Assembly: GCA_964016885.1 (NCBI GenBank)
Contig: OZ024743.1
Coordinates: forward strand, 217,992,001-218,056,000
Origin: Eledone cirrhosa
Taxonomy: Eukaryota
Reading direction: 5' to 3'
DNA length: 64,000 bases
Part shown: positions 19,685 to 64,000 of the stretch, piece after piece
Layout: the number at the start of each line of letters is the position of its first letter
How positions within the stretch are numbered: position 1 is the stretch's first letter
The notes under the pieces: model-generated
Seen by the model: the letters and a program-made list of their open reading frames with translations, nothing else
Told to the model about the DNA's origin: nothing
Database searches by the model: none
Position numbers and translations under genes: made by a program

Positions 19685-22600
19685 TCTTCTGCTTTTATAA
19701 TTTCACAATAGAGAGAGTCGGTGTCTAACATAGACACAAGACTCTCTCATTGGAATTTACACAACATCAACTATGTAGATATGTATGTATGCATGCATCT
19801 GTAGGTATGGATGTTATTGTATGTGTGGATGTGGATGTTTTGAGTTGTATGTGTGCATGTGTATATGCTTTTACCCCAGTAACAACAGGCATAAATCTGA
19901 ATGTGTAATCAGGGTGGAGTATCTGCAGATTTCTCATCAGTTCTGCATAAATATTCTCCTTTTCACTAATCTTTAATATTATATTTCCACTACTGTGCAT
20001 GTTTTCTTCTCCCTGTCCCATATCATAATATCTGGTCTGCATTTTATTGGAGTTTTTACTGGAACATTCCACCAGTACTCTTTCATATTATGTACATGGA
20101 TGTCTTCCACATTGTTGTAGCTTTTAACGTGTTTATTATCGGGGGTATCTTTTTTACGAACTGCATTGTACCACTACATCATGCCTCATGGGTAGATAGT
20201 ACCACGATGACATCTTTGGACAGCTGCTGATGACATGGGTGATATCCTCGATGGTAGTTCTGCAGAGTCTGCACTTGTTATCACATCTAGGTGTTTTGCC
20301 TGCATCCCTATCTCTTTTGCGAATCAGGTATTTCGTGCTAATCTCCTGTTCCTGGATTGCAAAGTGGGAACCAATATAGCGGTTGTTGGTCCAAGATAGA
20401 CTACTTTCCTTATCTATATTACTCTCACTCTGGAGCTTCCTGGCAACATATCCATGCATGATTTTTTGCTGATAGGCATGCAGTTTTTCATCCATGGATT
20501 CACTGCGATACTGCTGAGCGACATCCCTGGGTGTGAGTTTTTGATTATCACACAGGGAATATTTCTCAAGGAGTTCCTTCCCAACTCTCATGATCTTATC
20601 TGTTTCATGCAGATAGACTTGCTCGAGAAGCGGGCTCCTACGCTTCGAGGTTCGTAGATGTTGTCGGAGAGATATGATGCGACATTCAAATGTTGTCTGG
20701 ACTAATGTTAGGCCTCTGCCTCCCTGCTTACATTTCAAGTAAAGGTGGTCTATGTCACTGTCGATGTGGAAGTTTCCGGTGTTGTTCAGCATTTTTCGAG
20801 TTCCAACATCAACTGCTCGAATTTCGCCTATCATCCAATTGAGTATTCCAAACCTTGGTGTTAGGACAGGCACAGCAAACACAATATGAGTCACTGTTTT
20901 GTTTTACGCAGAGAGTTCCGATGGCCAGATCTTTCTTAATCGAGTGTAGTATTCCCTGGTTACGCGTTCTTTATTACAGATACCATTATAGAATATGTTC
21001 TCATCTATCCCCAGGTATCTGTAGCAGTCCTCATCAGATATCGGTGAAACAGTTAGACTATTGATGACAATGTTGCTAGATTGGGTTGTTGTTTTTACCC
21101 GCTTTACAGTCATGTATGAGCATTTATCTTGACCAATCTCCATTCCTATATCCCTTGAGAACGTTGTAACCAGGTCCAGATTTTTCTTCATCCCATTCAT
21201 GTTAGGTTCGTATTTCTGTCCTCCTGTGAGCCAATGATGTATCCCTCACATTTCTTGAGCAGAAAGGACAAGGGGTTTAATGACAAGATGAATAATATGA
21301 CAAAGAGAGTGTCAATAATGTCTGGGACTTTAGCAAGTTGGAGGGCCTCTATCATCCAAGAGTGGGGAACAGAATCGAAAGCTTTCTTGTAGTCCAGCCA
21401 GACTGTAGTCATATTCGTCCTAAGTTGTCGCACCTCCGACATCGCAGTTTTGTTGATTAGGGGTTGTTCAGCACATCCCCAAACCCTTTTCTTTCCAGGT
21501 ACTTGTTCATCTGTGATGATGTTATTATTTTCACAGTGATCTTGGAGGAATAGGTTGAGGCAGGCTGTATACATCTTATACATTATGTTCTGGCATGCAA
21601 TGGGTCGGTAGTTTTTTGCCAAGTGGGTGTCTTTGTTCTTGGGGACCAGTAACGTTTGTGCTAATGTCAACCATTCTGGTATAAGTGTATCTCCCTTAAG
21701 AACTTGTTGGTAGAGGTCGGTAAGATACCTCCGATACAATATCAGTTTTTTTTTGTACCAGTAGCCGACAATCATGTCTCTTCCTGGTGTTTTCTTATCT
21801 TGGAGTTTTCCTATCACAGTCTCAAGGGTACCCTCACTTATTTCGTATGTTTTTGTTGTAGTGTAGGAGCAATAGTTCTTTCGGATTTCTCTTAGCCACA
21901 CTGCATCTTGGTTGAAATTCTTCTTTTCACCCATATTTTTCTCCAAAAGGAATCTATGTTTTTCTGGTATGGGGGCCTCAGTGATACTTATTATTTTGCC
22001 CTTCATATCTCTATAGACTAATGTTTGGTTTCGTCTGAATCTTTTATTAAGTACTTTTCTTTCATCTACCTTCTTCAGGTATCGGTGTTTTTCGCTGACA
22101 GCTCTCAATTCTTCTTTGAGGGTGATCAGCTTATATTGGAGAGTTCTGGTTCTACTGTTACCAAACATCGTCTCTATTTTATTTTTCACTCTTTGTTGGT
22201 GAGGAGTGAGGTTATTTTGTGTTTGTTTGCATGTAAGGAGCATTGTCACATATCCTATGTTTTTTCGTAGGTCAGCAATCTTTTTTTCTATTTTAGTTAT
22301 ATATGATAGTATTTTTGGTGGTGTTTTGTACTTGTTAATATCTCTGCTATCACCAAGATAATGCTTCACTGTCGTTGCTATGGCATATAAACAGGCGTTG
22401 ATTTGCCAAAATGTGGGGTTTTTCTCCGTCGTAAATATTCATCCCCTATTTCATCAATAACACGTAGTATTTCATTATTTGGTTTTTTATTCAACATTGT
22501 CGTTTTAACACGTTCAGCAAGAGAGATATTTATACATGAGTTAATTTCTCTCTGGAAGATTTCGTTGCGGGAAATTTTCAATTGTTTATACTTTTGATTA

Positions 22601-23387
22601 TCATTATCGATAGTATTTTCCACGACAGTCGAGGTAGACTCGGATGGTACACGTGGTGTCACATTTATTCGATTATTATTATTATTATCGATAGTGTTTT
22701 CCCCATCATTCGAGGTAGACTTAGATGGTACAGGTGGTGTCAAGTTTCTCACAGGCATAGTTGTTTCAAGGCGCTGTTCGACCAGGCTGCTAGGAAGTAT
22801 GGTAGCATGGCGACTTGTAGCACGTGTTGCTGATAACATGTTTGTTGTTGGGGACTTACAATTAATAATATTTATCTTATTTTTACGTTCAACAAACGTC
22901 GCTTGTTGGCGTAATTGTTTCGCTGTGAAATAATTTAGCTCTGGGTGCATTTCGTCCCAGTGTAGCTTCATTTTATTCATATAGCCAATGGAGGGATTGT
23001 TTTTTGCCATTTTATAACAATTAAATAAATCATTATTAAGTTCGCAACTCCAAGAGAATTGCGATTTATAATTTCGGTGTCTTCGGTTTCTACAACTGAA
23101 TAAAGTTTGATTACCTTCCTTGTTATTTGTCTTCGATACTTCCTTAATTTTTTTTGTTGATGTTGTGTTCAGCCATGCTGTTTGTAGCAAATCCTTGTAA
23201 AATGAATTATGTATTTAGTCGGATATCTCTACGAATTCGAATAAATGTGTCTTCAGAAGATATAGTTAGAAGAATAACCAATTATGCAACCTGACTGTAG
23301 TTGTGGCATTACTGTCGGAGATAGTATTCATCTTAAATTTATTAGTCTCCCACGTCAAAATATGCGACTGATGGCGTTGACTGTCTA
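19685..23387 (-). mobile_element. R4/Dong-clade non-LTR retrotransposon (RT + restriction-like endonuclease), copy A, full-span but internally deleted
   Basis: Broken single ORF: N-terminal W.CE.N..L..CY...GYM..MK..W motif, RT segments (KTPGRD, NYRPIAC, WLDYKKAFDSVPH), YRYLG, CCHC knuckle CRLCRTTIEDITHVISSC, RHD and endonuclease remnants. Bounded by (TATG)n on both sides. Confidence 0.9.
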
Positions 23388-23457
23388 GTATGTATGTATG
23401 TATGTATGTATGTATGTATGTATGTATGTATGTATGTATGTATGTATGTATGTATGT
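23388..23457. repeat. (TATG)n spacer between the two R4/Dong copies
   Basis: Pure tetranucleotide array; equivalent arrays at ~19600-19684 and 27244-27412. Confidence 0.98.
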
Positions 23458-26400
23458 TCTGGTTTTATAATTTCACAAAGTTTTACCAATAGAGAGAGCG
23501 TCGGTTTCTAACATAGACACAAGACTCTCTCATTGGAATTTACACAACATCAACTCGGTAGATATGTATGTATGTCTGCATGCATGCATGTGTAGATATG
23601 GATGTTATTGTATGTGTGGATGTGTATGTTTTGAGTTGTATGTGTGCATGTGTATATGCTTTGTATCTGTACATGTGTATATGCAGTTATTAGATGCAAA
23701 ATTTTTGGAATGTTTTACATATTTTTACTTTTCCATTAATGGATTGTACTTGTAATTTCCTAACTAGTTGTGTTCTTGCTGTTCCTGTGAAGCCTAGCTT
23801 CTCGAGATTTGTATTGAGGCAGTTACTAACATATCCCAGTGCCCCAATATTCACAGGCATAAATCTGAAGGTGTAATCAGGGTGGAGTATCTGCAGATTT
23901 CTCATCAGTTCTGCATAAATATTCTCCTTTTCACTAATCTTTGATATTATATTGGCATCTGCTGGGCAGCTAATTTCCACTACTGTGCATGTTTTCTTCT
24001 CCCTGTCCCATATCATAATATCTGGTCTGTTATGCTTGCATTTTATTGGGGTTTTTACTGGAACATTCCAACAGTACTCTTTCATATTATGTACATGGAT
24101 GTCTTCCACATTGGTGTAGCTTTTAATGTGTTTATCATCGGGGCTATCTTTTTTACGAACTACATTGTACAGTGTTTTGGCAACTACATCATGCCTCATA
24201 GGTAGATAGTACCGCGATGACATCTTTGGGCAGCTGCTGATGACATCGGTGATATCCTCGATGTTAGTTCTGCAGAGTCTGCACTTGTTATCGCATCCCT
24301 ATCTCATTGTGAATCAGGTATTTCGTGCTAATCTCCTGTTCTTGGATTGCAAAAGCGTATCCTTCAAAGTGGGAGCCAATATAGCGGTTGTTGGTCCAAG
24401 ATAGACTATTTTCCTTATCTATATTACTCTCACTCTGGAGCTTCCTGGCAACATATCCATGCATGATTTTTTGCTGATAGGCATGCAGTTTTTCATCCAT
24501 GGATTCACTGCGATACTGCTGAGCGACATCCCTGGGTGTGAGTTTTTGATTATCACACAGGGAATATTTCTCAAGGAGTTCCTTCCCAACTCTTATGATC
24601 TTATCTGTTTCCTGTAGATAGACTTGCTCGAGAAGCGGGCTCCTACGCTTCAAGGTTCGTAGATGTTGTCGGAGATATATGATGCGACATTCAAATGTTG
24701 TCTGGACTGATGTAAGCCCTCTGCCTTCCTGCCTACGTTTCAACTAAAGGCGGTCTATGTCACTGTTGATGTGGAAGTTTCCGGTGTTGTTCAGTAATTT
24801 TCGAGTTCCAACATCAACTGCTCGGATTTTGTCTATCGTCCAATTGAGTATTCCAAACGTTGGTGTTAGGACAGGCACAGCAAACACATTGTGAGCCACT
24901 GTTTTGTTTTGCGTAGAGAGTTCCGATGACCAGATCTTTCTTAATCGGGTGTAGTATTCCCTGGTTACGCGTTCTTTATTACAGATACCATTATAGAATA
25001 TGTTCTCATCTATCCCCAGGTATCTGTAGCAGTCCTCATCAGATATCGGTGAAACAGTTAGACCATTGATGACAATGTTGCTAGATTGGGTTGTTGTTTT
25101 TACCCGCTTTACAGTCATGTATGAGCATTTATCTTGGCCAAACTCCATTCCTATATCCTTTGAAAACGTTGTAACCAGGTCCAGATTTTTCTTCATCCCA
25201 TTCATGTTCTTGGGATAGAGTTTCAGATCGTCCACAAAGAAGTTATGGGTTAGGTTCGTATTTCTGTCCTCCTGTGAGCCAATGATGTATCCCTCACATT
25301 TCTTGAGCAGAAAGGACAAGGGGTTTAATGACAAGATGAACAATATCACAGAGAGACTGTCCCGCTGAAATATACCCCTGCAATATTTTATTTTATCAGT
25401 GAAAATAGAGTCCTCCCTCTCTGTCTTTAACCTTAGGATAGTAGCCAAGAAGAAGACAGCCTCTCTATGGCTCTGACAATAATGTCTGGGACTTTAGCAA
25501 GTTGGAGGGCCTCTATCATCCAAGAGTGGGGAACAGAATCGAAAGCTTTCTTGTAGTCCAGCCAGACTGTAGTCATATTCGTCCTAAGTTGTCGCACCTC
25601 CGACATCGCAGTTTTTTTTTGTACCAGTAGCCGACAATCATGTCTCTTCCTGGTGTTTTCTTATCTTGGAGTTTTCCTATCACAGTCTCAAGGGTACCCT
25701 CACTTATTTCGTATGTTTTTGTTGTAGTGTAGGAGCAATAGTTCTTTCGGATTTCTCTTAGCCACACTGCATCTTGGTTGAAATTCTTCTTTTCACCCCA
25801 TATTTTTCTCCAAAAAGAATCTATGTCTTTCTTGGATGACACTTATTATTTTGCCCTTCATATCTCTATAGACTGATGTTTGGTTTCGTCTGAATCTTTT
25901 ATTAAGCATTTTTCTCTCATCTACCTTCTTCAAGTATCGGCGTTCTTCGCTAACAGCTCTCAATTCTTGTTTGAGGGTGATCAGCTTATATTGGAGAGTT
26001 CTGGTTCTACTGTTACCAAACATCGTCTCTATTTTATTTTTCACTCTTTGTTGGTGAGGAGTGAGGTTTTTTTGAGGTTTGTTTGCATGTAAGGAGCATT
26101 ATCACATGTCCTATGTTTTTTCGTAGGTCAGCACTCTTTTTTTCTATTTTAGTTATATATGATGGTATTTTTTGTGGTGTTTTGTTCTTGTTAATATCTC
26201 TGCAATCACCAAGATAATGCTTCACTGTCATTGCTAAGGCATATAAACAGGCGTTGATTTGCCAAAATGTTGGGGTTATTCTCCGTCGTAAATATTCATC
26301 CCCTATTTCGTCAATAACACGTAGTGTTTCATTATTTGGTTTTTTATTCACCATTGTCATTTTAACAGTTTCAGCCAAAGAGATATTTATACATGAGTTA

Positions 26401-27243
26401 ATTTCTCTCTGGAAGATTTCGTTGAGGGAAATTTTCAATTGTTTATACTTTTGATTATCATTATCGATAGTATTTTCCACAACAGTCGAGGTAGACTCAC
26501 ATGGTACACGTAGTGTCACATTTATTCGATTATTATTATTATTTCTTCCATTATTATTATTATCGATGGTGTTTTCCCCAGCATTCGAGGTAGACTTAGA
26601 TGGTACAGGCATAGTTATTTCAACGCGCTGTTCGACCTGGCTGCTAGGAAGTCTAGTAGCATGGCGATCTGTAGCACGTGTTGTTGATTCCATGTTTGTT
26701 GTGGGGGACTTACAATTAATAATATTTATCTTATTTTTACGTTCAACAAACGTCGCTTGTTGGCGTAATTGTTTTGCTGTGAAATAATTTAGCTCTGAGT
26801 GCATTTCGTCCCAGTGTAGCTTCATTCTATTCATATAGCCAATGGAGGGATTGTTTTTTGCCATTTTATAACAGTTAAATAAATCATTATTAAGTTCGCA
26901 ACTCCAAGAGAAATGCGATTTATAATTTCGGTTTCTTCTGTAGCTACAACTGAATAAAGTTTGATTACCTTCTTTGTTATTTGTCTTCGATACTTCCTTA
27001 ATTTTCTTGTTGATGTTGTGTTCAGCCATGCTGTTTGTAGCAAATCCTTGTAAAATGAATTATGTATTTAGTCGGATATCTCTAAGAATTCGAATAAAAG
27101 GTGTCTTCAGAAGGGATAGTTAGAAGAATAACCAGTTATTCAACCTGGCTGTAGTTGTGGCATTTCTGTCGGAGATAGTATTCATCTTAAATTTAATAAA
27201 TAGTCTCCCACGCCAAAATATGCGACTGATCGCGTTGACTGAT
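23458..27243 (-). mobile_element. R4/Dong-clade non-LTR retrotransposon, copy B
   Basis: Colinear with copy A. Retains RT GIFQRDSLS and FVDDLKLY and the endonuclease RPDIMIWDREKKTCTVVEISCP...KENIY (23690..24223). Carries frameshifts and a ~300-bp RT deletion. Confidence 0.92.
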
Positions 27244-41777: not shown

Positions 41778-44524
41778 TAGGGTGTTCCAGAATCCCACAT
41801 TTTATACAAAAGTGTTTTTCTCTTAGCTCCCTATGTATTTTCTCATGCCATTTTGTATATTACAATTTATATTGTAATTTTGATTATTTCAGACTAATTT
41901 AAGCCTTGCCTAATAGTTGCAAATTGGCGGAATAATGGCGGAAACCAGTCGGCCTAGTTGTAGCTACTCGCTCCGTTGTGATGATCGAGAAATATGGCCC
42001 CTGGGGCAATATGTTATATCCTTTTCACCAAACAAAATACCAACAAAGGGGATGTTCTAAGATATTTCTTCTACCTGAAAGATGGTCCTATGAAACACGA
42101 ATGGCATGTGAGCTTCAATGGTGCTATTGCGGATAGGTTTGTGATGGAAGTAGTTAGTCAGTAGAAAAAAGCTGGTGTGTCGACTCAACGAAAAGACAAA
42201 GTGAAACTGAAAATTATGAACATGTACAGTGAATACAGAAATTTACAAAAAAAAACAAAGGTTATAAGTCAAACAAAGAAAAGGAATCACTATTTATTTC
42301 TGAATTGGATTCGTATTTCTACATTGCACATACTGATGCTGAAAAGAAAATTTTGAAAGACCGTCTTCGTGATAATGAACAGAAAATTGAAGATGCTACA
42401 TTTCTCGAACCCCTGCGTTGCCAGAAAAAAAGTATCTCTGGGTGCTGAAGACAAGGGTTACCAGAAAAAGGTATCTTCAAAGTTTAAGCGTGATCAGGTT
42501 AATGTGGCTCGTCGAGAGTCAGAGAACCATAGAAAGCGTTTGTCAGGATCTGTAGCAGCACAACTTCCGCATAATGAACTGAGTGATTCAAGTTCAACCA
42601 ATGATGAAACTGAAGATGAACAGGATCCTGAATTTAAGGCCTCAAACCCACCCAGAGACAGCTCAAAGTCAGTCAAGAAACGAAAGGTCCAGCTGGAACA
42701 CCCAAAGAATCCATTTCAAAATCCAAAAGTTTCTCTAATGGCTGATCGTTTAAAGCTGACACTGAGCCAGAGAACAGCATTTATGGCATCGATTATTTCT
42801 GAGGGTGGGACTGACATAGACCCCACAACTGTCTCCAAGAATAGTGGCAGACGTGCAGCTAAGAAGATCAGAACTGTGGGGGCTGAACACATAAAGGAAA
42901 AATTTGCTGTACCAGACTTTGTTACCTTGCATTGGGATGGCAAAATAATTCCTGGTGACCACGAGAGGCTAGGTGTGCTAGTTGCTGGAACCCCGGACTT
43001 CAGAGAAGGTAAACTCCTCGGTGTTCCCATAATTCCTGATGGCACTGGAACCACCCAAGCCAAAGCATCATTTGATCTTGTTAAAGATTGGAATGTTGAT
43101 GGGTCTGTGGTAGGCTTGGTCTTCGACACAACTGCTTTGAATTCTGGATGGAAAAATGGTGCCTGCGTGAAACTAGAAGAGATGCTCAACAAAAATGTGT
43201 TTTATTTTGCTTGTCGGCACCATGTCATGGAGTGTATCTTGTGTGCAGTGTGGTAACAACTATTTGGAGCAATGTCCAATCCAGATACCCCAGAGTTCAA
43301 AGAGCTCAAAAGAGAATGGGTGTCACTCACGGACAAGACCAACTTTAAAACATTGAACATTGTCGACCGGAGACTCAAGTTCCTCCAAGATTTGCTGACA
43401 TTCGGCGATGGGAAAATGAGTTCTCTTCCACGGGACGACTACCGAGAATGTGCCGAGTTGATGTTGATCTTGCTTGGTGTCACCCCTCCTCGTGGAATTC
43501 ATTGGATGCTGCCTGGTGCACATCATAATGCTCGGTGGATGTCCACAATCATCTATAGTGCAAAGATGTATGCATTTGGTGAGCGACTCAATTACGATCA
43601 AGCTAAAATGGAAAATTTGTGCCGGATCTGTATGTTCAATGCTCTGTTCTACGTGCGATAGTGGCTGAGAGCAGTCAAGTGTGCTGATGCACCATCCAAT
43701 GACCTTCAATTCTACGTGGAGTTGACACAGTACAGTAAGGTTGACAGAGATCTCTCGCAGGCAGCCACTACTGCTCTGAGCAGGCATCTTTGGCACCTGA
43801 CGGAGGAAGCCATTCCGCTAGTGCTGTTTTCAAGTCGGGTCCAAGAGTCCGAGAAGAAACAAATAGCCCAACGTCTTGTCAAAACGAAAACGTCTGGGCC
43901 TCTCGACCGTGGAGCTCCATCATTTCCCGAGTTGAAGTCGTCCACGAAGCTGCTTCGTCTAGTTGGGAAGAAATCAAGGCTTCTGTTCGATCTCCTTGGT
44001 CTCGACGATACTTGGCTTGAGCTGTCAACTGCAACTTGGTCATCACAAGCGTCATATCAAAATGCCTGTGCTGTTGTTCACAATATCAAGGTAGTCAATG
44101 ATCTAGCGGAGAGAGCAGTCAAGTTGATAACTGATTTTGTTGCCATCACCAAGAATGAGGAGAAGTAGTGTGTTCTTCAAGTAGTCGAAGCTCATCGCCG
44201 CAAGGTCCCGGATTTCAAAAAAGAAACTCTGAAAAAAATATGACTGGAGTTAACTTAACTGAACTTGTTTCTTCTTTGTACGCCTTTATATTCAAAGGTG
44301 GTTTACTAAAATAAACAATTATTGTATGGTCATATTTGGTTTCACATTTTCATGATTTCATGCAACATAATCACACTTTCCACTATAATCACTATGATAT
44401 AGGCAAGGCTCAAAATAATTTATATTATACAAAATATATTTTATTTTACTAATTGGGGAATTTATAATGGGAGAATATACAGGGAGCGTTAGTATTGTGA
44501 CCTTGCTTTTTATGGCACACTCTA
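41778..44524 (+). mobile_element. hAT-superfamily (hATm-like) DNA transposon, full length, inactive
   Basis: Termini TAGGGTGTTCC ... GGCACACTCTA; subterminal inverted motifs (ctccctatgtattttctc / gagaatatacagggag and agccttgccta / taggcaaggct); ATATATAT on both flanks fits an 8-bp TSD. The hATm subfamily call is from motif recall. Confidence 0.8.
41935..44243 (+). pseudogene. DDE transposase pseudogene
   Basis: Motifs LHWDGK, VFDTTALNSG..GAC, ACRHH (CxxH), PRDDYRE, PGAHHNARWM, VVNDLAERAVK. In-frame stops at ~43254, ~43659 and ~44166 plus 5' frameshifts. Confidence 0.85.
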
Positions 44525-47024: not shown

Positions 47025-47157
<133 letters not shown>

Positions 47158-47188
47158 TTGTGTGTATGTGTGTGTGTGTATGTAAATA

Positions 47189-47265
<77 letters not shown>

Positions 47266-47442
47266 TTATATATATATATATATTAGAATTGGAGCTCTGA
47301 AATAGCAATATATATATGGATGTATATATAATGTATTTTGCAATACACTTTATGCTTAATTAAAAGCATTTTGAAGACCGTATGCTATTGTTTTAGTGTA
47401 GTGACAAATTTACTTACTTTAATCTCAGCAAACAGGGGAGAT

Positions 47443-47488
47443 AAGCCGACAGGCCTTGTTTCGCTTTTGTTGAAGCTTATCAAGGCTA
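47443..47488 (-). ncRNA. Minimal type I hammerhead, U3-A8 core variant
   Basis: Minus strand: tAGCC-TTGATAA-GCTT-caacaa-AAGC-GAAAC-aaggcct-GTC^GGCT. Confidence 0.75.
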
Positions 47489-47758
47489 ACTACGCCTCCT
47501 GTCTACTGAGATTACTGATGTTATATTCTCATAGAATTCTAGTAAATAATCATGAACTGATTATACAGAGCGATTGTTGGTCAGGCAGAAATAAAAAATT
47601 AGAATTGTAGCTCTGAAATAGCAATATATATATGGATGTATATTTAATGTATTTTGCAATACACTTTATGCTTAATTAAAAGCATTTTGAAGACCGTATG
47701 CTATTGTTTTAGAGTAGTGACAAATTCACTTACTTTAATCTCAGCAAACAGGGGAGAT

Positions 47759-47805
47759 GAGACGACAAGGCCTTGTTTCGCTTTTGTTGAAGCTTATCAA
47801 GGCTA
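47759..47805 (-). ncRNA. Minimal type I hammerhead, U3-A8 core variant (unit 2)
   Basis: Same core; stem III is the perfect palindrome ACAAGGCCTTGT; one stem I mismatch. Confidence 0.7.
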
Positions 47806-48111
47806 ACTACCACTCCTGTCTACTGAGATTACTAATGTTATATTCTTATAGAATTCTAGTAAATAATCATGAACTGATTATTCAGAGCGATTGTTGGTCA
47901 GGCAGAAATTAAAAATTAGAATTGGAGCTCTGAAATAGCAATATATATATGGATGTATATATAATGTATTTTGCAATACACTTTATGCTTAATTAAAAAC
48001 ATTTTGAAGACCGTATGCTATTGTTTAAGAGTAGTGACAAATTCACTTACTTTAATCTCAGCAAACAAGGGAGATAGGCCGACCTTGTCGGCTTATCTCC
48101 CCTGTTTGCTG

Positions 48112-49967
48112 TCCTTATGTCGGACAGACGGGACGTCGCCTGGCGGACCGATTCACTGAACACCTCCGGGATATTCGTCTCGGTTGTAGTTCCCCTATCG
48201 CACGCCACTTTGGTGGCCCTGGACATTCCGCACGCCATCTCACAGTCTGTGGCCTACTCCAATGCCACGGAACACCCGCCAATCGCCTTAGAGTCGAACA
48301 AAGAACTATCTTCATCTTACAGACGCACACTCCCCCCAGCCTGAACTCCCCACCCTTATTCCTTTAGCCTTCGACCCCCCCCCCCCTCCCCCCACCCTTA
48401 TCCCCCACTAACACGACTAACACACCCCTCTTTTCACCGCCCACCCCACAACTAACATTACTAACACCTCCACTCCACCCCTCATCCGACCACCCTTCCC
48501 CAACTAACATACTAACATCCCTCCCTTCTTCTCCTCCTCCCCCCTCCTTATCACACGCACACACCCACCGGCACATATATACACGCGCTCACACTAAACA
48601 CACACCCTACTACCACCACTAACCCTCACCCCCACATATCCATCCCACCACCCCGCAACTAACCTCACTAACACCCCCTGACCCCAAGCACACGAACACA
48701 CGCACCCACTTACACCACCCACTTACACCACCCACCCCACACGCAACTAACATCACTAACACCCCCCCAACCCCACGCACACCTACCCACACACCCTCGT
48801 ACACCACCAACTCTACACACCCTACCACCACTAACCCCCACTCACACCTGCATTCAACCCTTCCCCACCTCCCGTATACTAACACCCACTAACACCCCCT
48901 TCATCAAACTACACACACACCAGTACACCACACTCCCTCCATAGAACTACACACACCCTTCTCTCCCCGCTCCACCCACACCCTCGCTCCACACTCACTC
49001 ATCCCTTTAACACCTCTACTAATATACACACACACCCTCCTCACTCCAACTGTCACACCTACCCATCCTCGCCCCTTTACCATTCCACCGACTGCTGCTA
49101 TGCCTTCTGACCACCTCCAAGCAGAAACAGACACACAGCACTCCCACCGCTTGACCACTTCCTGTTGCGCGCGCACCCCACATCTCTCCTCTTCCGACCA
49201 TCTCTTCATGGAATACTCGTATGTGGAACTTGACCACCACAGAATCCACTAAACATCATAGGAATTTACCAACATTTCAACCATCTTCTTTCGGAATCAC
49301 CTATATAACTCACCCACACACACACCCCAAAAAAATTTTTTTCTCCCACACGCCACCCACACCCCAACACGCTTAACCCCCACACACACGTGCTTTCCAC
49401 CACATATTTACACCCTCAGCCTCCTATCCACACACGCACAGACACTCCGACCTACAACTCCCCCCCCCCCCACACACACACCTCTTCCTGAACATGCAAC
49501 ACCGTTCTTACCCCGACCCTTACTTTCACATACACACACACACACACACACGTACACCTACACACACACACCACCTTCAGCACTCCCCGCTCGGACACCC
49601 CGTCTCCCTCTCCCCACTCCACCCGTCACCACCCTTACACACCCCACACCCTTCCACCACCTGTTTTACCCCTTTTTAATTTCAGTTTATTTTGATCATG
49701 CTTTTATATTTAATTTTATTTCATTCCTTGTATTTTGATCATGCTTTATTTTTATTTTTATTTTTCATTTCATTCGCACCGTTTCCTTTCGCTATATGTC
49801 TCTCCACCACTCCCCTACACACCCTTTGAACTCTGTTCCCACACACTTCTCACCTGAGGAAGGGCTTATGCCCGAAACGTCGTTCCCCACCACCACCTCA
49901 CTCTCCAGAGCGTGAAATTAACATTCGTTGTACTGCCTCTCTGTTTTGTTCCTGTTCAAATTTTTCC

Positions 49968-49970
<3 letters not shown>
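48112..49970 (+). mobile_element. 5'-truncated Penelope-like element: GIY-YIG C-terminal half, long C/A-rich 3' region and HHR
   Basis: Manual translation of 48113-48367: PYVGQTGRRLADRFTEHLRDIRLGCSSPIARHF...RLRVEQRTIFILQTHTPPSLN. HHR at 49851. Confidence 0.8.
49851..49884 (+). ncRNA. Minimal PLE-type hammerhead motif
   Basis: cac-CTGAGGA-a-GGGC-ttat-GCCC-GAAAC-GTC^gt, with an ACGT palindromic stem III. Confidence 0.7.
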
Positions 49971-51046: not shown

Positions 51047-51841
51047 ATAACAACACACAACAACCAACAACAACAAAAAAACAATACCTCCCCACATACC
51101 AACAAAAGAAGGCATCACTTCGCCCCTACCTCCTACATCCTCCACACAACTACCACACGGACTCTCAAGCAACATATATAGTAATAGAGAAACATCAGCT
51201 ACAAGATAGACACTACAGCTTCTCTCCTACCAGGAGAAACCATAGAATCCTCCACACCTACAATCCCCCTAACATCTCCACACAACAAACCCACAACCAT
51301 CATTACTTCCAACATAGAACCCAAAATACACAACTACCACACATGTCACACAGGGCCCCACAACCACACACCAGCTATAAGGAAACCCTAATCTACCCTC
51401 CCCCACTAACCACACCCTACTACAACAACACCAGCAGGGGACAATACAACCACACGAGACACCCTAACACACCATATAACAGCACAACAGGACTCAATAT
51501 AACCACACAAGACAACCCTACTACAACTACCACCAAGTCTACACGCCGTACAACAACAGCAGTGCTCAGTAGAACCATACGATACCACCTAACTTCAACA
51601 AACACAACAACTTCACACCCTACAACAACATCAGCAGGGCTCAATGCAACCACACGATACAACCTAAACTCAACAACCACCACAGCTACACACCATCTTA
51701 CAACAACAGCATGAGCCAATACAACTATAAGAGACATCCAAACTTCAACAGCCATCACAACTTCCGTAATCATTTTTTAGACACAGCACACAGACACAGG
51801 ATAACAAGATAACACAAAACACACAGGAGACACAAAATGCA

Positions 51842-54008
51842 ATAAAAATTGTCAATTTAACCTCTAAAGAATTAACAACAGACCAAATCAACATACTCTC
51901 CAAAGGTCTAAAATTTACACCAACTCCCCAACAACCAAACTACCCCGAAATGAAGGAAGATATTGCAGAATTCTGTAGAAAACTAAGACTCAGCGAACAA
52001 CTATACGACAAATACAATGAGGATGACTCAATAGCCAGAAATAGAAGCAACTACACCCCACCAAAAGGCAAGAATAAATTCCTCGATCAATTCTGCGAAC
52101 ACATTACTAATTACCCATACCACCACCTACATAACAAAATCAAAAACCAAACCTAAGCAAAAAAGAATGGAATGGTCTTAACCGTCTAAAAAACGACAAA
52201 ACCTTAATAATCAAAGAGGCAGATATAGGGAGGGCAGTAGTCCTTATGGAGACAGATTATTACACAACTCTAGTACTCTCAACTTTAGAAAACCAAACAT
52301 ATTATGACAAGGCCCAACACTACACACAACAGAAAATAATGAGAAACCTAAAATCCCTAACAAACCTTTACAAAGAAGGCCTTACAGACAAGGAATACAA
52401 CTACATCAACAATTTCAAAAGCAGAATCAGCCTCTTCTACGGTACCCCCAAGACACACAAAAGCGAAGTAATAGGCAGGGCCTGTAAGCAAGCCACATAC
52501 GTTTACATCAATATAGCCCCTCCCGATGACCTTAAATTAAAACCCAAAATAGCAGGCACCACATGTGAAACCCACCGCCTAAGCAACTTCCTAGATATTC
52601 TGCTTAAACCTTTCCTAAAACATATAAAAAGCTTCATAAGGGACGACCTTGACATGCTCAACCACCTCCCAACAACACTCAATAACGAACATACCCTACT
52701 TGTAACCTTTGATGTCATCAATTTATATTCCATTATCCCACACAACCTAGGTATAGTGACAATACAATTCTGGATGGAAAATTTCCCTAGTGAACTTCAA
52801 CAGCGCATCCCTAAGGAATTTGTGTTGGAGGAACTCAAATTCATCTTGCAAAACAATTTCTTCGAATTAAATGCCAAATACTACAGACAGAAATCTGGGA
52901 CTGCCATGGGCACGAAAGTGGCCCCTCATACGCCGACCTTGTCATGGGATATTTGGAAACCATTCTCTACCGCAAAGTTCTAGACAAATACGGCAACCAC
53001 TTCTACCAACACATAGAAAAGAGCTGGAAGAGATATCTGGACGACTGCTTCATCCTCTGGCATGAAAGTATCGATAGACTGTTCTAAATGGACTCAACAC
53101 TAACTTACAATTCACAATGGATTACAACCATGAACAACTCCCTTCAAGAAAACAAGCAGCAAAATAGAAACAGTCATATACTACAAACCCACAGACTCCA
53201 AACAATACCTTCCATTCAACTCGTGCCACCCTAGACACACCAAAATGGCAATCCCTTATAACCTAGCCAGAAGGATCTGCACAATAGTTTCAGATAAATA
53301 CACATTCTACACACGACTAGAAGAATTAAAAAACACACTTATCAGCAGAAACGACCCACCATCCCTAATCACCAAAGGATTCCAACGTGCCCTAAAGCTA
53401 GACATCCAGGAACTCAGACACCCCAAACCAAGGAATGAACCGCAACAAAAAACTCTACCATACATCTCCACACACAACCCCCTCAACAATGAGGCATTCG
53501 ACATAAAGAGCAAAAGACAACCCAAATCCATAAAAAAACATCCTCACACAACCCAAAATCGAACAAACCCTCATAATGAACCCTACAGTAACAAAATGCG
53601 GAAGGCCCAACTGTGGCATATGCATAAATCTAATAGAAGGTTCAACATTCCATTTTAAACAAGGACAACGTTTCACAGTTAAACACAACTTTACATGTGC
53701 ATCTGAAAACCTTATCTATGTTTTGACCTGCTCAGGTTGTCAAGAGCACTACATAGGACAGACAAAAAACAGCCTCCGTCAACGTATGACCGTCCATAAA
53801 TCACAAATTAAAATACAGGATTACAGAAAGTTTGCATTTAGTGAACATATCGCCAATTGTGCTCTCAACCAACATCCAAACTTTAAAATTTTTCCCCATT
53901 TACAAATTCATAGACAACGCTACTTTCATCCAACGTACCAATAAGGAAACACATTTCATTAATAAATTTCAACCACTACTCAATGCTCTAAAAATCGGAC
54001 CAATTTAA
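51842..54008 (+). pseudogene. PLE RT/GIY-YIG polyprotein pseudogene (several frameshifts)
   Basis: ORF pieces 51950-52156, 52246-52983, 53245-53658 and 53576-53944 are colinear with PLE domain order. Confidence 0.88.
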
Positions 54009-54425
54009 AACTGCAACAAACCATCAAACATTTACAAGAGTTACCTCCCTCACACCCTACCTAATCCTTTTTCTTAAATAAATTAAATATCACCCAGCAA
54101 GAATTGCTTCACCCTGTATATTAACTCTCTAAAAAGGGAAACCATATCAAACCTCAGGCCACCATTTGCCTCCTTCACGCAACCATGGTTCAACTAAGCA
54201 CTCTTGCTATATTAACACATTTTGAACTGCTTAACTTCAATGACTGTGCTTGTAAATAACATTATTTTTCCTTCCACATTGACTTTTTACGTTCCACATT
54301 ATTCTCGTCTTTTTTTCCTTTTTCTTTTTTTCTTTTTTCACTTCTTAAACCTTGGTTGTATATAATATTATTCTTTCTGCACCTTCAGTTTAACATGTGC
54401 GACACCCCACTAATACATTTCACTA

Positions 54426-54465
54426 TCATTTGATAATGCATATAAATGCTGAAACCGGTAATAGA
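54426..54465 (+). ncRNA. Minimal hammerhead motif, U3-A8 variant, in the PLE 3' pLTR
   Basis: tcat-TTGATAA-t-GCAT-ataa-ATGC-t-GAAAC-CG-GTA^ataga; ACCGGT palindromic stem III. Confidence 0.6.
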
Positions 54466-54661
54466 CAATAATTAAATAGATAAATAGATAAATAAATGCC
54501 ATTGTTAAATAATAAATAAATCAACTAATACCTTAACACTTCACACAAAGTAAAACATTTCGTTTTAATCATTTTCTAACCCAGAAAAAAGAGAGAGAGA
54601 AACAAAAAAGGAAAAAAATATATTTTTCTTCCTCATAATCGCCTCTTTCTCCCTGATTCCA

Positions 54662-54771
<110 letters not shown>

Positions 54772-54785
54772 CGTGTGTGTGTGTG

Positions 54786-54995
54786 TATAGTGTATTTTGC
54801 AATACACTATGCTTAATTAAAAGCATTTCGCAGATATCTCCCCTGTTTGCTGAAAATTAAAGTAAGTGAGACTGTCACTACTCTAAAACAATAGCATAAG
54901 GTCTGCGAAATGCTTTTAATTAAGCATAGTGTATGGCAAAATACACTATATATACATTCATATATATATCGCTATTTCAGAGCACCACTTCTAAT
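54786..54995 (+). mobile_element. Solo half-unit of the 316-bp repeat family with an inverted 5' fragment
   Basis: 54835-54995 is the reverse complement of 47282-47442; 54786-54834 is an inverted copy of part of it. Confidence 0.8.
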
Positions 54996-55008
54996 ATATA
55001 TTTATATA

Positions 55009-58079: not shown

Positions 58080-61000
58080 CTACAGGCTGATATAGAGAGA
58101 AGGCCCATTCACTCGGGCCATTCTCGCTACTTTCACCCATCTTTCATAAAACTTGCTGGGGTAGAGCACCTCTCTCTCCATTCTGATCCTTCTTCTAAAG
58201 TGGTACTTGAAAAAAAAGACCAGTTGTTGGCCGGAGAGATAGGTGTCTGACCTCAGCCCTTTCAACCTTGTCCACCATACAACTTCTTTCGCCATGGCTA
58301 TCACACAGAGGAAAACCGCCTCTCCTTCGTTTTTGAAAGGGGGAGGCGGTTTGATTGTGACAATGTTCTCGGTGGTCAACCGGATTGGTCCCACCCGCGA
58401 CAGCAGTCGTTCTACATAGCCCCACAGGTCAGCAACGCCCGGGCAGTGTACGAATGCATGTGCGACGGTTTCCTCGTCACGCACGCATCTTGGACAGATC
58501 TTCTTCGAGGGGTCCCTACCCGGGCGCCGGTGTCTGTAGAGCTTGTCCCGAACGGGTAGAGCTCCTCGGTAACATTGCCAAGCCAGGGACTTTTGGAAGT
58601 TGTCCATCGGTCCCGGGCCAAACGTCCTACCGAACAGACTGGCCAGCTCGTCTTCCTCCATGCCCAGAGCCTGTCCGAGAGCGTCGTCGCACTTACTGCG
58701 CACCAACCCTGTATAGAATGTTGAGGTTGAGTCTCCACTGATTGCCGGATCCGCTTGCCAGAGGGCCGTGAGCGCCTGGGCACATTCAATGTGCCAGTCG
58801 CCCATTTTTCTCGGTCTTGATCCAGGATTGCAGCTCGGTGAGTGAGACGAGTCTCGGAAAGGCTCGCCTCACAAACAGGGCCCACACCGGCTGACCGGTG
58901 AGGAATACCTGGAGGTGCCGTAGCCTTAATGCGTGTCTACGCATCGTCAGTCACGGCATCCCCAGCCCTCCGTTCGAAGGGTGTTGACAGCAGATGGATC
59001 TTCTCACCAAAGGAGCCCGCTTCTTCCAAAGAAATCGGAAGAGCGCGCGCTCCATTTTGGCGAGTGTTTTCTCTGGGCAAGGCACGACGGTCAAGCGGTA
59101 GTAGATGACGGACGCTATATAAGCGTTCGCCACCTCCGCTCGACCTTTCAGGGATAGTTTGCACTCGGCCCACTTCTGGGCGAGTGCAAACACCTTGCCC
59201 GTTACCTCGTCCCAGATTTTCTCCACCTGGAGGTCCGGTCCGAACCAGACCCCGAGCAGCTTCACCGGTCCCTCCGTCCAGCGTCCGACGATGCCGCCGG
59301 AGGGCATCGTTTTGCCCCTCCACGTCCCGAGTTGCAAACCGACGGACTTGTCCCGGTTCAGCTTGGCTCCTGTGAACCTTTCATATTCCTCCAGTAAGGT
59401 GCCGATCTGCCCGATTTCCGAGGCGCACGACACCATTACTGTCACGTCATCGGCGTAGGCCGACACCGCTTTCCGCAATCCCGGTTCCAAGGGGATGCCC
59501 TGCAACAGCTCCAGCTTCCGCAGTAGTGGCTCGAGAGCCAGCACATACAGGAGGGAGGAGAGAGGGCATCCCTGTCGAATGGATCGCGTGATTTGGAACG
59601 GCTCCGAGAGGTAGCCGTTCACCTTGACCCTCGAACAGGTGTTGCTGCTGTGCATTGCAGCAATCCAGCCCCTGAAAACGGGTCCGAAGCCTGCCGCCGC
59701 GAGCACCGCATCCAGGTACCGATGGTCAACCCTATCGAACGCTTTAGATTGATCCAAGTTGATCAGGGCCCCACCAAAGCCGGGTTCGTTCCCTACCCTC
59801 TCTACGATGTATCGCATGAGGTGGAGGTTGTCGTGTATGGACCTGGACGGGATTGCGCATGTCTGCGCTTCTCCCACCAGGTTCCCGACGACAAGCGCCA
59901 ACCTCTTCGCTAACACCTTGGCCAAAATCTTTAACTCTGTGTTTAGCAGAGTTATGGGCCTGAAGTTATCTATGTCATCCCCCTTGTTCTCGTCCTTCCT
60001 CACCAGCGTGACTACGCCCTTGGTCACAGAACTGGGAATTCTCCCGTTCTGTTGCCAGTTGCAGTAGACCGCCTCGAGGAGACCGGAGAACAAGCCCGGC
60101 ATCGCTACATAAAGTTCGTATGGTAGACCATCGAGACCCGGAGATTTGCGTTTGCCGCATTGGCTCAGCGCATTCCCTATTTCAGCGGCTGAAATCGGCC
60201 TCTCGCAGGACTTCGCCTCCCCGTCCGAGAGCCGCGCCAGACCGTCGAGGTATGGACCGAAATCCATGGCCCCACCCGGCCCGCCGCCCCACCCGAACAG
60301 TCGTGCAAAGCCCCGTTGAAAGGCCGCGCTCATCCGCTCAGGTTCAAGGTTCACGCGTCCATCCTGGTCCTTCAAAGACCGAATCGTGGACTTGTTTCCG
60401 CTTTTTGCCTCTGTCACTCGGGCCCAGCTAACAGCTTTGGCTCCCTCGTTACCCAGATCACGTATTTTACTCCTGACAACGCAGCCCTCGTGCTTCGCAT
60501 CAAAGAACTGGTCTAGGGCCGTTCTTGACGCCAGCACGCCGGCCACGTTGCCACTGCTAATCGCCTCTTTTACTCTATTTGTTAATTCCCTTTCAGTTCT
60601 ATTCCTATCTGATGCTAATTCCCGACTAAAACCTATCGATTCTATTCTAATTTCTCTCTTGAGAGAGCCCCACCACCTGCTGTTGACAATTGCCCCCGTC
60701 AAACGCTGCTTAACTAGTGTGCTAATCCGCTTACTGTAAGCTTTGTTTGTCGGTAAAGACAAGTTTAGCTTCCAGTAACCGGGTCCCTGTCTATGAGTTC
60801 TATCAAGGTTGACCACTCCGGTCAACAACTTGTGATCCGAATAGTCAACCATGAACATTCGTGGACAGCTTAATATGTCCCTATCCTTATTTCTAACTAG
60901 GAACCTATCTAGGTACGAACTGGATGTTCCACTGCGATTACTCCACGTCCACCGTGGCACAGTCGGAAAATCCAGTCGATATCTATCGGCCAGATCAAAT

Positions 61001-61513
61001 CGGCCGATTAATCGTTTGAGGCTGTTACACCCCCCTCTATCGGGACATGCCCCTACATAGTCCCAACGTGCATCCAGGATACCATTCCAGTCCCCCCACT
61101 AAAAGCAAGGAGCGAGACGTTCCCAGGAAATTCTCCAGGCGTCGGAAGAAGTCTGGTCGCGGTGTCCCCGATGGGGCATACGCTGCCACCAGCCTGAAAG
61201 CTCCACCTTCACCACTGCCGACGTCTAAAACCACCAGTCGACCCTCCGGGTCCAGGTGTACCTTCTGTGTGGCAAGACCCAGGTATTTTTGCAGCAGAAC
61301 GACAACCCCACCCCCACCCCTCGGCTGACAGAGAGATGCGTAGATCTCAAAGTCGTCGAATATGGGGGCCAGTTGGCGCTCGCTGCTGATCCTGGACTCG
61401 CAAATAACCATTACATCCACTCTGTGCGACCTGAGGTCATTTAAGAGTTTGCCCTGTTTCCAGGACATCCCCAAGCCGCGTGCATTCACACATCCAACTC
61501 TTATATTGGCCAT
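58080..61513 (-). pseudogene. LINE ORF2 (APE endonuclease + reverse transcriptase + C-terminal zinc finger), about 3 lesions
   Basis: MANIRVGCVNARGL, YAP, GDWN (frameshift ~61095), YLDRFL, SDH, KSPGLDG, NFRPITLLN, DQSKAFDRVDH, RQGCPLS, AYADD, stop at ~58951, frameshift ~58810, CPRC...ETVAHAFVHC. Confidence 0.93.
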
Positions 61514-61555
61514 GTTGGTGCTGAAGAGGTAAAAAGGAAGAGGAAAGGAAATTAC

Positions 61556-63465
61556 TTACCTCTTCGTCTCCTGGGGGCCAGGCTGCACAATTTCCATGGG
61601 GGTGTTGGAAGGGTTGTTTGGTGGGGTGGTGGTTTGTAGTGGGGTGAGGACATCAGTGTGTGGTGGGATTAGGGTGTTTGGTGGGGTGTGGGTGTCTGGT
61701 GTGGGGGTGGGGAAACATCTCAATAGGACGCTGTTATGTGGTTTGGTGCAGTTGGTCCCCACATGCATTGGATGGTTGTTTTTCAAAGTTACATAGGTTT
61801 CTGTTGGGACCCTAATCATCATTAGGTGCGGTTTGTTCGCTGCGTAGGTGAAAGTGATCCCTTCAGTTTCCACCGAAGGGTTATTTTCTATCGCTTTCAT
61901 CAACGTTTTATTGTTCTTGTTAGTGTATGTATAGAGTTTTTGTTGTGTTGTGTTTGTTTTTGTTTGTTGTTCTTGCGGGTGTTTGCGTTTTATAGTACGT
62001 GTTATGTTTTGGGGAGGGGTGGGCTTTTTTATTTGTGATGTTTGTTCTGTTTGTGCTGGTGGCTGTGTGTTTGTGGCATTTTTGTTAATGTGGTGCCTTT
62101 TTTTTTTCCTTTTCACCTGTTGAAAGGGTTCTCCCTCGTCGTCACTGGGTGACGTTGATACGGAGTCCTCTTCCGTGTTGTTGGGGAGGGGTATATTTTG
62201 GCGTTTTGTTGTGGTTGCTTTTGTATTTGTTTTAGGTGGGGAGGGATTGGGTGGAACAGTGTTTTGTGTTGTTATTTTTCCGTGTTGTTGTTGTGGTGGT
62301 GGTGGTGGTGGTTGTGTTGTTGTGTTCGGGGTTGGCAGAAGAGCCTTTTTTTTTTACTCGTTAATTAAGGACAGGCAGCCCTCAGGTGACCCCTGCTTAA
62401 GCAGTGGAAACATGACGGCCGCCTTCCCTCCACTGAAATGTTTATATAAGTTAGCCCGTCCAGAGGCACGCGTTGTGGGATATTCGCTATTCGTTCTGGG
62501 CTCATTTGCACCAGAACTTCTACTGTGGTCCCACCAAATACACCTCCGGAGCACTTTCCTATTGAAATTATATTGTCTTCGTCCAAGTTTATTATTCCAC
62601 ATAGTATCCACCAAATGTTTACATTTGGTGTGATACTCATTATTTTTATTCTTTTTGTCCTTTTTCCCCTGTATGTGGGGTAAAAGGTGAAGTGGGGGGA
62701 CACAATGGGTGCTATCGAGTACTTTTGAGCTGTTGACTGGTTGTTCATCAGCACCGAAATGCTACCAAACAGTTTACCTTTTTGTATGAAGGTTAAGTCC
62801 TTCATTGCGTCTTTTAGAACCAGCTCAATCTCATTTTGTGATAATTGCGCTGGTTTTCTTGTTACGTTCGATATTGTCCTGAAAACCACAGTTTTAAGGA
62901 CAGCCTCTCTACGTAATTCCTGTGGAGAATTAATGCTAAAAGCACCGTTTTCACCAAAAGTCACAAATTGTTTTGCGTCTTGTAATAGTTGTTTAGCATT
63001 TGTTATGTCTATTGGCGTGTATAGTTCGTTTTTTTTTACGGTCTGTGCAAATGTTGTTTTGGTGTTGTTGTCTTTCGTGTTACTGTCACTGTTGGTAATA
63101 TTGGTGTTGCTATTGTTGCAGTTGTTGGTTGTGGTGTTGTTGTCATTGTTCTTGTTGTTGGTGCTGCTATTATTTGCCGGATTTGCTTTCGCGGTTTCGA
63201 TATTTTCCACGTTTTTCGATGATGCAAGGGGGGATGGCTGCAAGCTTTGCACTCCTACCTTCCCTCCACCACTTTTCTTAGTGGGCGTGGCACTCACGAC
63301 AGTGTGCGAGGTGGAAATGGCATCCATTGCCACCAAGTCTACAGTTTTTAGATGAAAATTGAAAATTTCGCCCCAGATAGGGGCGAAAATTTGTTGACTT
63401 AACGTCTGACGGCCAAGGCAAGGCGCTAAACCAAACAATGTTATTAAATTGATTAATAAACTCAC
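61556..63465 (-). pseudogene. LINE ORF1 (gag-like, CCHC zinc knuckle), interrupted by a stop at ~62365
   Basis: 366-aa ORF ending CFHCLSRGHLRAACP; a low-complexity K/T/P-rich continuation runs to 61556, just before ORF2. Confidence 0.8.
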
Positions 63466-64000
63466 AGTTCTTTTTTACAACAATCCGCAAAAATCCGGAG
63501 CAAAGTAAATCACGTCTATATCAAGTGTTAATTGATATAGAGAGGGAGATTGGAACAGAGTTCCGTGTAGTAATGTAGGTTTTGGTAGTTTCACCCCAAA
63601 CTACTAAAACACACATTTATTCTGACAGTTTTAGAGTACAAAGAGCTAAACCATATGTGCAACATATTCCATTGGTGGATCACTTTTGAACATTGGAACA
63701 ACTATTTGGGCCAATCACTGTCAGAAATATGTAATCTAATGAAAACCACAACTTCTTTCCATAACATGGAACTTGGATATTATAACACACACAACTCAGT
63801 GAAACCCTTTAGTTTAGGTAAACTAACAGAAAATTGTATTACGGATACGAAAAAAATTCTAAATAACACTACAAAGTAAACATTTAAAACGGTCATCGCG
63901 GACCACTCTGACTGGTGATGTAATTGCTGTCAGCAAGACCAGGATTTCCGACACGGGCGCACTAGCCCCCATTTTCGACGACTATCAGATCTTCGCATCT

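What the first reader, a model, noticed from the sequence alone, without database searches (positions are those of the whole stretch)
47282..48083. 316-bp tandem repeat with U3-A8 variant hammerheads: candidate non-LTR retrozyme
Seen: 2.5 non-coding units. Each full unit has AGCC-UUGAUAA-GCUU(loop)AAGC-GAAAC-palindrome-GUC^G, and the predicted cleavage sites (47448, 47764) are 316 nt apart. The C3-G8 core pair is replaced by a compensatory U3-A8, also seen independently at 54430. Known: metazoan non-LTR retrozymes are tandem repeats of a few hundred bp with type I HHRs that yield circRNAs, and 3-8 covariation preserves activity. Inference: a concatemer from reverse transcription around a circular RNA; a strict CUGANGA search would miss it.
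Basis: partly seen in the sequence, partly recalled or inferred. Interest (0 to 1): 0.8.

Follow-up and report, generated by a model that had tools for sequence, protein, structure and literature searches.

The report
Ribozyme repeat spread by Penelope machinery
This 316-base repeat carries a hammerhead ribozyme motif with an unusual but known core pair, and it belongs to a family of over a thousand insertions whose back-to-back shape suggests that a Penelope-type jumping gene likely copies it around a predicted RNA circle from two fixed start points, one per DNA strand.

Summary
The repeat and its U3-A8 type I hammerheads are real. U3-A8 itself is already described (PMC3088659, PMC4209133). 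Both window copies are slightly damaged, and the motif at 54430 belongs to a separate decayed Penelope-like element (PLE). The family has at least 1,079 insertions in (TA)n tracts and conserves the hammerhead fold through compensatory changes (9 of 13 pairs). Most insertions are head-to-head pairs. Arm ends fall at two sites, about 140 and 166 nt after the cleavage site, and an insertion uses one of each: 34 of 34, then 47 of 50 in a second sample, and 13 of 13 in a C3-G8 sister family. This matches the PLE "tail". Arms read through the cleavage site. In the sister family, units within one insertion are identical or nearly so, up to 27 units, but differ between insertions. Best reading: a non-LTR retrozyme mobilised by a PLE, likely by rolling-circle reverse transcription. 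Here it is fused to a PLE 3' end, but that PLE is a weak candidate driver. Cleavage and circles were not tested; no RNA run was listed. The scan noted head-to-head PLE ends in another genome (e1-7882047).

The parts
47028..47281 (.). (TA)n/(TG)n microsatellite at the left end; target tract
   Evidence: 79 of 90 canonical arm ends in the census run into (TA)n
47282..48083 (-). retrozyme arm, 2.5 units, 3' end at the 'long' site (unit position 166 = 47282)
47282..47307 (-). 26-nt tail between the two family end sites (positions 141-166)
   Evidence: end positions; tail motif has 21,825 matches over all subfamilies
47420..47514 (-). hammerhead copy 1 with long helix I extension; core U3 47483, A8 47478, predicted cleavage after C 47448; one U lost from helix III
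47736..47831 (-). hammerhead copy 2; core U3 47800, A8 47795, predicted cleavage after C 47764; helix I mismatch at 47762
48083..48111 (+). short inverted (fold-back) piece of the unit, crossing a cleavage site (C at 48089)
48114..48367 (+). C-terminal part of the GIY-YIG endonuclease frame of an autonomous PLE family ('PLE-A'), joined without a TA spacer
   Evidence: 92% aa identity to the end of an RT-EN frame in L075/L168; junction lies just after a hairpin where many PLE-A copies are rearranged; no Pfam hit for the 84-aa piece itself
48368..49969 (+). PLE-A 3' UTR with its own minimal hammerhead (C3-G8 core at 49854-49860), ending in (TA)n at 49970
51050..54664 (+). separate decayed PLE ('PLE-B'): broken RT and GIY-YIG frames, minimal U3-A8 hammerhead at 54430
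   Evidence: (GIY-YIG E 1.6e-5)
54780..55003 (+). short insertion of an older subfamily of the same repeat (87-89% identical), long end, with a small inverted 5' piece; no hammerhead core

Best explanation
The repeat is a non-coding, hammerhead-bearing non-LTR retrozyme that is likely inserted by the reverse transcriptase-endonuclease of a Penelope-like element, which would copy a predicted circular monomer RNA from two fixed start sites, one for each strand of a cut (TA)n tract. Shown: conserved hammerhead fold; dispersed copies in (TA)n; head-to-head arms; one short and one long end per insertion; read-through of the cleavage site; one sequence variant per insertion. Inferred: transcription of tandem copies, self-cleavage and ligation to a ~316-nt circle; binding of a PLE protein (probably a dimer) near the tail; nicking of both target strands; priming at positions ~140 and ~166; rolling-circle synthesis of variable length; joining of the two cDNA ends, often over a few overlapping bases. 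The window copy is one long-end arm of 2.5 units whose other side is a PLE-A 3' end. Whether that fusion arose during insertion or by a later deletion is open (about even odds).
For: Fold conserved: in 13 sequences chosen to span subfamilies, 98.2% of cells are paired and 9 of 13 pairs change on both sides; slid controls give 22-41% paired (one search gives 99.7% and 7 of 13 on 26 rows). A tree of 54 rows shows a ladder of U3-A8 subfamilies with successive compensatory changes in helix II, and one change of the 3-8 pair. Anatomy: 45 of 59 loci on contigs C1+C2 are head-to-head; 90 of 103 arm ends fall at 136-141 or 164-174; all 34 pairs with two canonical ends are one short plus one long (p 6e-11 against 0.5). 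In 70 further loci picked by a long end, the script's classes were 47 long+short, 3 long+long, 10 long+other and 10 single; one of the three long+long is two adjacent long+short insertions. The sister family (65% identical) ends at or within a few bases of the same two sites, one each in 13 of 13 complete pairs. PLE-C, whose 3' end follows an RT-EN frame in L098, and PLE-D, whose 3' end follows RT/EN matches in L211 and L222, show the same short/long pattern. Literature: tail at one end only, inverted 5'-truncated copy and (TA)n targeting are PLE traits (PMC8557442 passages); the tail equals the distance between two RT start sites and both strands are cut and extended (PMC11167929). One template per insertion: opposite arms share subfamily alleles (83 of 84 at position 27, against 61% between loci); sister-family units are identical within 7 of 11 loci and average under 1 difference per unit in the other four (one of which holds two insertions), while loci differ by 0-5 nt; arms reach 27 units. 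Read-through: 55 of 103 arms exceed one unit; 5' ends do not pile up at the cleavage site (3 of 93 against 4.7 expected; 6 of 127).
Against: No transcript, circle or cleavage was shown. The predicted minimum-energy fold of intact copies is not the active hammerhead (2.8-4.8 kcal/mol away). In the anole PLE, hammerhead mutants still inserted in vitro and unprocessed RNA was the main substrate, so read-through does not prove a circle. In Xenopus 8 of 9 retrozyme dimers did not cleave. No autonomous PLE sharing the unit or its tail was found. PLE-A, the fused partner, showed a single 3' end region in 30 of 30 copies and no opposite arm within 1.5 kb. Seamless joints also occur with other elements, including a LINE-like 3' end (L097), so a fusion does not name the driver. 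Assembly polishing could make near-identical units look more alike than they are. A hand-picked extra set did show 5' ends near the cleavage site (10 of 52), so some linear cleaved templates are possible.
Confidence: 0.72

Rival explanations
1. Same PLE-driven insertion, but the template is an uncleaved linear multimer transcribed from an earlier insertion; the hammerhead plays no part in mobilisation.
For: Read-through of the cleavage site fits equally. Hammerhead activity was dispensable for the anole PLE in vitro. The active fold is not the predicted minimum. Arms of the U3-A8 family are short (median 341 and 257 nt).
Against: The hammerhead helices were kept by repeated compensatory changes along the lineage. 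Arms of up to 27 near-identical units with a locus-specific variant need a step that regenerates length, since 5' truncation alone only shortens arrays (inference).
Confidence: 0.17
2. The unit is the pLTR or truncated 3' end of an autonomous PLE not yet found, not a non-autonomous element.
For: It behaves like PLE 3' ends. Xenopus retrozymes are homologous to pLTRs. My search for a partner was limited to fetched loci.
Against: Upstream of the hammerhead the arms continue into another unit, not into an ORF. In tblastn of the fetched loci, RT/EN matches next to an arm lay on the opposite strand or beyond a TA tract. The helix I extension pairs the two ends of the unit and closes it on itself.
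Confidence: 0.07
3. The tandem units arose by local duplication (satellite-type unequal crossing over) after a monomer inserted.
For: True for one large array on C2 (at least 33 kb), whose units share variants in subsets. The 2026 preprint discusses this route.
Against: Dispersed multi-unit loci show almost only singleton variants (28 against 1, 15 against 0, 6 against 0). Divergence within an arm equals that between arms (0.029 and 0.029). Both arms are multimeric with fixed ends.
Confidence: 0.04

Closest known systems
Metazoan non-LTR retrozymes (Cervera & de la Pena 2020, PMC7229834)
   Same: Non-coding tandem units of a few hundred nt, one type I hammerhead per unit, strongly self-paired monomer; PLEs named as the strong candidate driver.
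   Different: U3-A8 core. [quoted passage not shown] Circles were shown there and not here.
Vertebrate non-LTR retrozymes as non-autonomous PLE derivatives (Li et al., bioRxiv 10.64898/2026.07.22.740005)
   Same: Same conclusion that PLE machinery is the likely driver.
   Different: Their evidence is co-occurrence and pLTR homology; 'tail', 'head-to-head' and 'target site' have 0 occurrences. Here the evidence is the insertion footprint, and no homologous pLTR was found.
Neptune/Nematis-type EN+ Penelope-like elements (Craig et al. 2021, PMC8557442; Frangieh et al. 2024, PMC11167929)
   Same: Tail at one end, inverted 5'-truncated copy, microsatellite target, two RT start sites.
   Different: No ORF; multimeric arms; tail 26 nt (up to ~36 if the internal AT run is counted) against 30-40; near-strict one-short-one-long rule counted here.
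U3-A8 hammerhead variants (Perreault et al. 2011, PMC3088659; Schistosoma PLE min-HHRs, PMC4209133)
   Same: Same core covariation, described as natural and active in vitro and found in about 1,300 PLE-type motifs.
   Different: Here it sits in a canonical-sized hammerhead (4-bp helix II with 6-nt loop, 4-5-bp helix III, long helix I) in a tandem retrozyme, not in a minimal motif.

Membership tests
non-LTR retrozyme | tandem non-coding units of ~150-400 nt | tested here: met
   316-317 nt period; stop-to-stop frames over the array are at most 92 aa apart from those running into microsatellite or the PLE-A frame
non-LTR retrozyme | type I hammerhead in each unit | tested here: met
   U3-A8 core; window copies partly damaged
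non-LTR retrozyme | dispersed multi-copy family, monomers to multimers | tested here: met
   495 hammerhead matches; 1,079 long ends in TA over U3-A8-type subfamilies; one large array
non-LTR retrozyme | self-cleavage of the RNA | not testable with these tools
   only covariation and folding
non-LTR retrozyme | expressed as circular RNA | not testable with these tools
   no RNA holder listed
PLE-mobilised non-autonomous element | tail at one end, from two RT start sites | tested here: met
   34 of 34, 47 of 50, 13 of 13 in sister family
PLE-mobilised non-autonomous element | inverted 5'-truncated copy adjacent at the 5' end | tested here: met
   45 of 59 loci; 60 of 70
PLE-mobilised non-autonomous element | microsatellite target | tested here: met
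   79 of 90 canonical ends flanked by (TA)n
PLE-mobilised non-autonomous element | 3'-end homology to an autonomous PLE | tested here: inconclusive
   no similarity of the array to PLE-A or PLE-B in the window; no same-strand RT-EN frame directly upstream in fetched loci; whole genome not screened
autonomous PLE | RT plus GIY-YIG ORF between pLTRs | tested here: not met
   the unit encodes none; the EN piece at 48114 belongs to another family on the other strand
PLE minimal hammerhead (min-HHR) | helix III absent or 1-2 bp, extra nucleotide before helix II | tested here: not met
   helix III 4-5 bp and no extra nucleotide; the motifs at 49854 and 54430 are of the minimal kind

The most novel reading that the evidence does not exclude
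These insertions record the full mechanism of animal retrozyme spread: a dimeric PLE protein primes both strands of a (TA)n break on one ribozyme-made circle, one subunit at each of two sites 26 nt apart, and rolls around it. The one-short-one-long rule would then be a general law of PLE integration, and the fused window copy a co-integration of a retrozyme and a PLE RNA at one break.
Probability: 0.4. Interest if true: 0.8.

Novelty: new variant of a known kind. Interest (0 to 1): 0.58.

Why it matters
Which enzyme spreads animal retrozymes, and whether circular RNA is the template, has been argued from co-occurrence and homology. This family gives a countable footprint and exact predictions: start sites at ~140 and ~166, one per strand, on a (TA)n target. 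It also gives a natural pair of related families, U3-A8 with short arms and C3-G8 with long arms, for testing how ribozyme chemistry relates to concatemer length (age is an equally good explanation so far). Searches that demand the canonical core would miss a lineage of over a thousand insertions.

Tried and rejected
Expression: no RNA holder listed; the four runs laid are contigs of unrecorded type and say nothing on transcription. 5' ends piling up at the cleavage site as a sign of in vivo cleavage: not seen in two systematic samples. A simple fold-back copy of the first arm as the source of the second arm: rejected, since either arm can be the longer and arms are not nested. PLE-A as the driver: weak. 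54430 as a family copy: rejected. The C2 array as source of dispersed copies: unlikely, since its helix III variant was not among the dispersed copies counted. One search used a mis-registered structure string and is superseded. Pfam found only GIY-YIG in 1 of 5 PLE pieces. Earlier scan notes: none for this genome or this sequence. One paper on 3-8 pair exchange rates was not held, so I give no rate for U3-A8.

Full report
Observation. The array at 47282-48083 is real: period 317, 2.5 copies, 95% matches. The minus strand holds two type I hammerhead motifs with the core UUGAUAA, and their predicted cleavage sites are at 47448 and 47764. Rfam scores one as Hammerhead_HH9 at 26.1 bits, under the family threshold. 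Copy 1 lacks one U in helix III and copy 2 has a helix I mismatch, so this locus is probably decaying. The U3-A8 motif at 54430 belongs to a broken, nearly full-length PLE. Its family and another PLE family ('PLE-C') carry U3-A8 in most copies examined.

Surroundings. The whole insert runs from 47282 to 49969 between two (TA)n tracts. Left is the retrozyme arm pointing left. At 48083-48111 lies a short inverted piece of the unit, then two unmatched bases, then the last 84 codons of a GIY-YIG frame and the 3' UTR of a PLE family ('PLE-A') pointing right. A longer relative in L168 carries the RT-EN frames between direct repeats. PLE-A and PLE-B show the extra cysteine motif upstream of GIY-YIG that marks Neptune/Nematis clades (sequence; feature from PMC8557442); I did not place them on a tree.

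Family size and core. An exact hammerhead pattern with the 3, 7 and 8 positions left open has 495 matches and 0 in the control; all 100 listed read UUGAUAA. In 58 dispersed loci 102 of 106 motifs have that core, and none of the other four is C3-G8; in part of one large array 73 of 73 do. A pattern for the long end running into TA gives 1,079 insertions over related subfamilies, a lower bound. A sister family with the canonical core, 311 nt and 65% identical, has 10,894 matches.

Is the hammerhead under selection? On 13 sequences picked to span subfamilies, 98.2% of cells pair and 9 of 13 pairs change on both sides, including 3-8; slid controls fall to 22-41%. These sequences are related, so this is not a probability. 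A tree of 54 segments (one per distinct hammerhead type; only 6 rows kept of those with the commonest helix II) puts all 46 U3-A8 rows on one side of a branch with 99/97 support. Within it the subfamilies form a ladder in which helix II changes in compensatory steps. The two core columns were in the alignment, and the root is only a midpoint, so 'U3-A8 is derived' is an inference. U3-A8 is known in nature and reported active in vitro (PMC3088659 passage), and known in Schistosoma PLE minimal hammerheads (PMC4209133).

Insertion anatomy. I took one locus per place for the matches on contigs C1 and C2 (59 loci). Of these 45 are head-to-head. Of 103 arms of at least 60 nt, 43 end at positions 136-141 and 47 at 164-174 after the cleavage site; 79 of those 90 ends run into (TA)n. 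All 34 pairs with two canonical ends have one short and one long end; the other 11 pairs have at least one non-canonical end. A second sample, the first 70 long ends listed, gave 47 long+short, 3 long+long, 10 long+other and 10 single; L327 and L328 may be one duplicated event. The sister family ends at or within a few bases of the same two positions, one each in 13 of 13 complete pairs. PLE-C shows a short-ended inverted arm in 8 of 30 loci and PLE-D in 8 of 25, with four more PLE-D pairs ambiguous. This is the PLE tail, described as often present at one end only (PMC8557442) and equal to the gap between two RT start sites in an enzyme that cuts and extends both strands and is predicted to be a dimer (PMC11167929).

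Template. Arms start downstream of the hammerhead and mostly pass through the cleavage site without stopping (3 of 93 5' ends near it, 4.7 expected; 6 of 127). Both arms and all units of a locus share subfamily alleles. In the young sister family, units are identical within 7 of 11 loci, while loci differ by 0-5 nt, and one arm has 27 units. One monomer variant copied many times on both arms is what rolling-circle synthesis predicts. An uncleaved homogeneous multimer is the main alternative, and assembly polishing is a caveat. The C2 array differs: its units share variants in subsets, so it grew locally.

The fusion. Seamless joints between a retrozyme arm and another element occur in the window (PLE-A), L098 (PLE-C), L099 and L171 (PLE-D, a family with only 59 candidates), L002 (another GIY-YIG-like frame, read by eye) and L097 (a LINE-like 3' end, read by eye). 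They could come from two RNAs primed at one break, or from deletion between neighbouring insertions in a shared TA tract. I cannot separate these. PLE-A showed one end region in 30 of 30 copies and no opposite arm nearby, so families like C and D fit better as drivers, but none shares visible sequence with the unit.

Comparison and novelty. It works like, and on the testable features is, a non-LTR retrozyme; cleavage and circles were not testable. That PLEs drive animal retrozymes is proposed in PMC7229834 (sections 14 and 17, passages) and argued from co-occurrence and pLTR homology in bioRxiv 10.64898/2026.07.22.740005 (parts 1-3 of 5). I found no description of the tail or head-to-head footprint in retrozymes in nine searches. 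The library lacks most subscription papers, and I saw no supplements, which may hold U3-A8 or inverted examples. I read parts 1-2 of 4 of PMC4209133 and of PMC11167929, and only passages of PMC8557442 and PMC3088659. Verdict: a new variant of a known kind; the core change is ordinary, the insertion footprint is the valuable part.

Noticed in passing
G000:C2:207686300-207720300 (L082-L084, L167): A satellite-like array of the same unit, at least 33 kb, starting from a head-to-head insertion, with higher-order repeats, repeated ~183-bp inserts and a compensatory change in helix III.
   Followed up: partly
L093, L100, L156-L166, L187, L188: Very young C3-G8 sister family, 10,894 hammerhead matches, arms up to 27 units with identical units; the best candidate for detecting circles and active insertion.
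   Followed up: partly
window 47448-47490 and family copies: In intact copies U3 helps form a competing hairpin between the core and helix III that is predicted more stable than the active fold; it could keep circles from re-cleaving.
   Followed up: partly
tally: Strand imbalance of 325 forward against 170 reverse matches; perhaps another array; not located.
   Followed up: no
L168 (G000:C2:80018000-80027900): Nearly full-length PLE-A copy with direct repeats about 4.75 kb apart and one frameshift, next to a retrozyme insertion.
   Followed up: partly
window 58083-63474, minus strand: Near-complete LINE (ORF1-like frame, endonuclease and RT frames, several breaks); Tx1/L1-like by recalled motifs.
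   Followed up: no
window 20157-27059, minus strand: Two broken copies of another non-LTR retrotransposon (RT-like frames).
   Followed up: no
window 42357-44165, plus strand: Transposase-like frames broken by stops.
   Followed up: no
window 2142-2215 (minus) and 2243-2681: A tRNA gene (66.6 bits, anticodon AAU by eye) next to a 221-bp dimer with 95% matches.
   Followed up: no
L020: Next to a retrozyme arm, short identical segments flank TA tracts as inverted pairs, repeated twice; unexplained.
   Followed up: no
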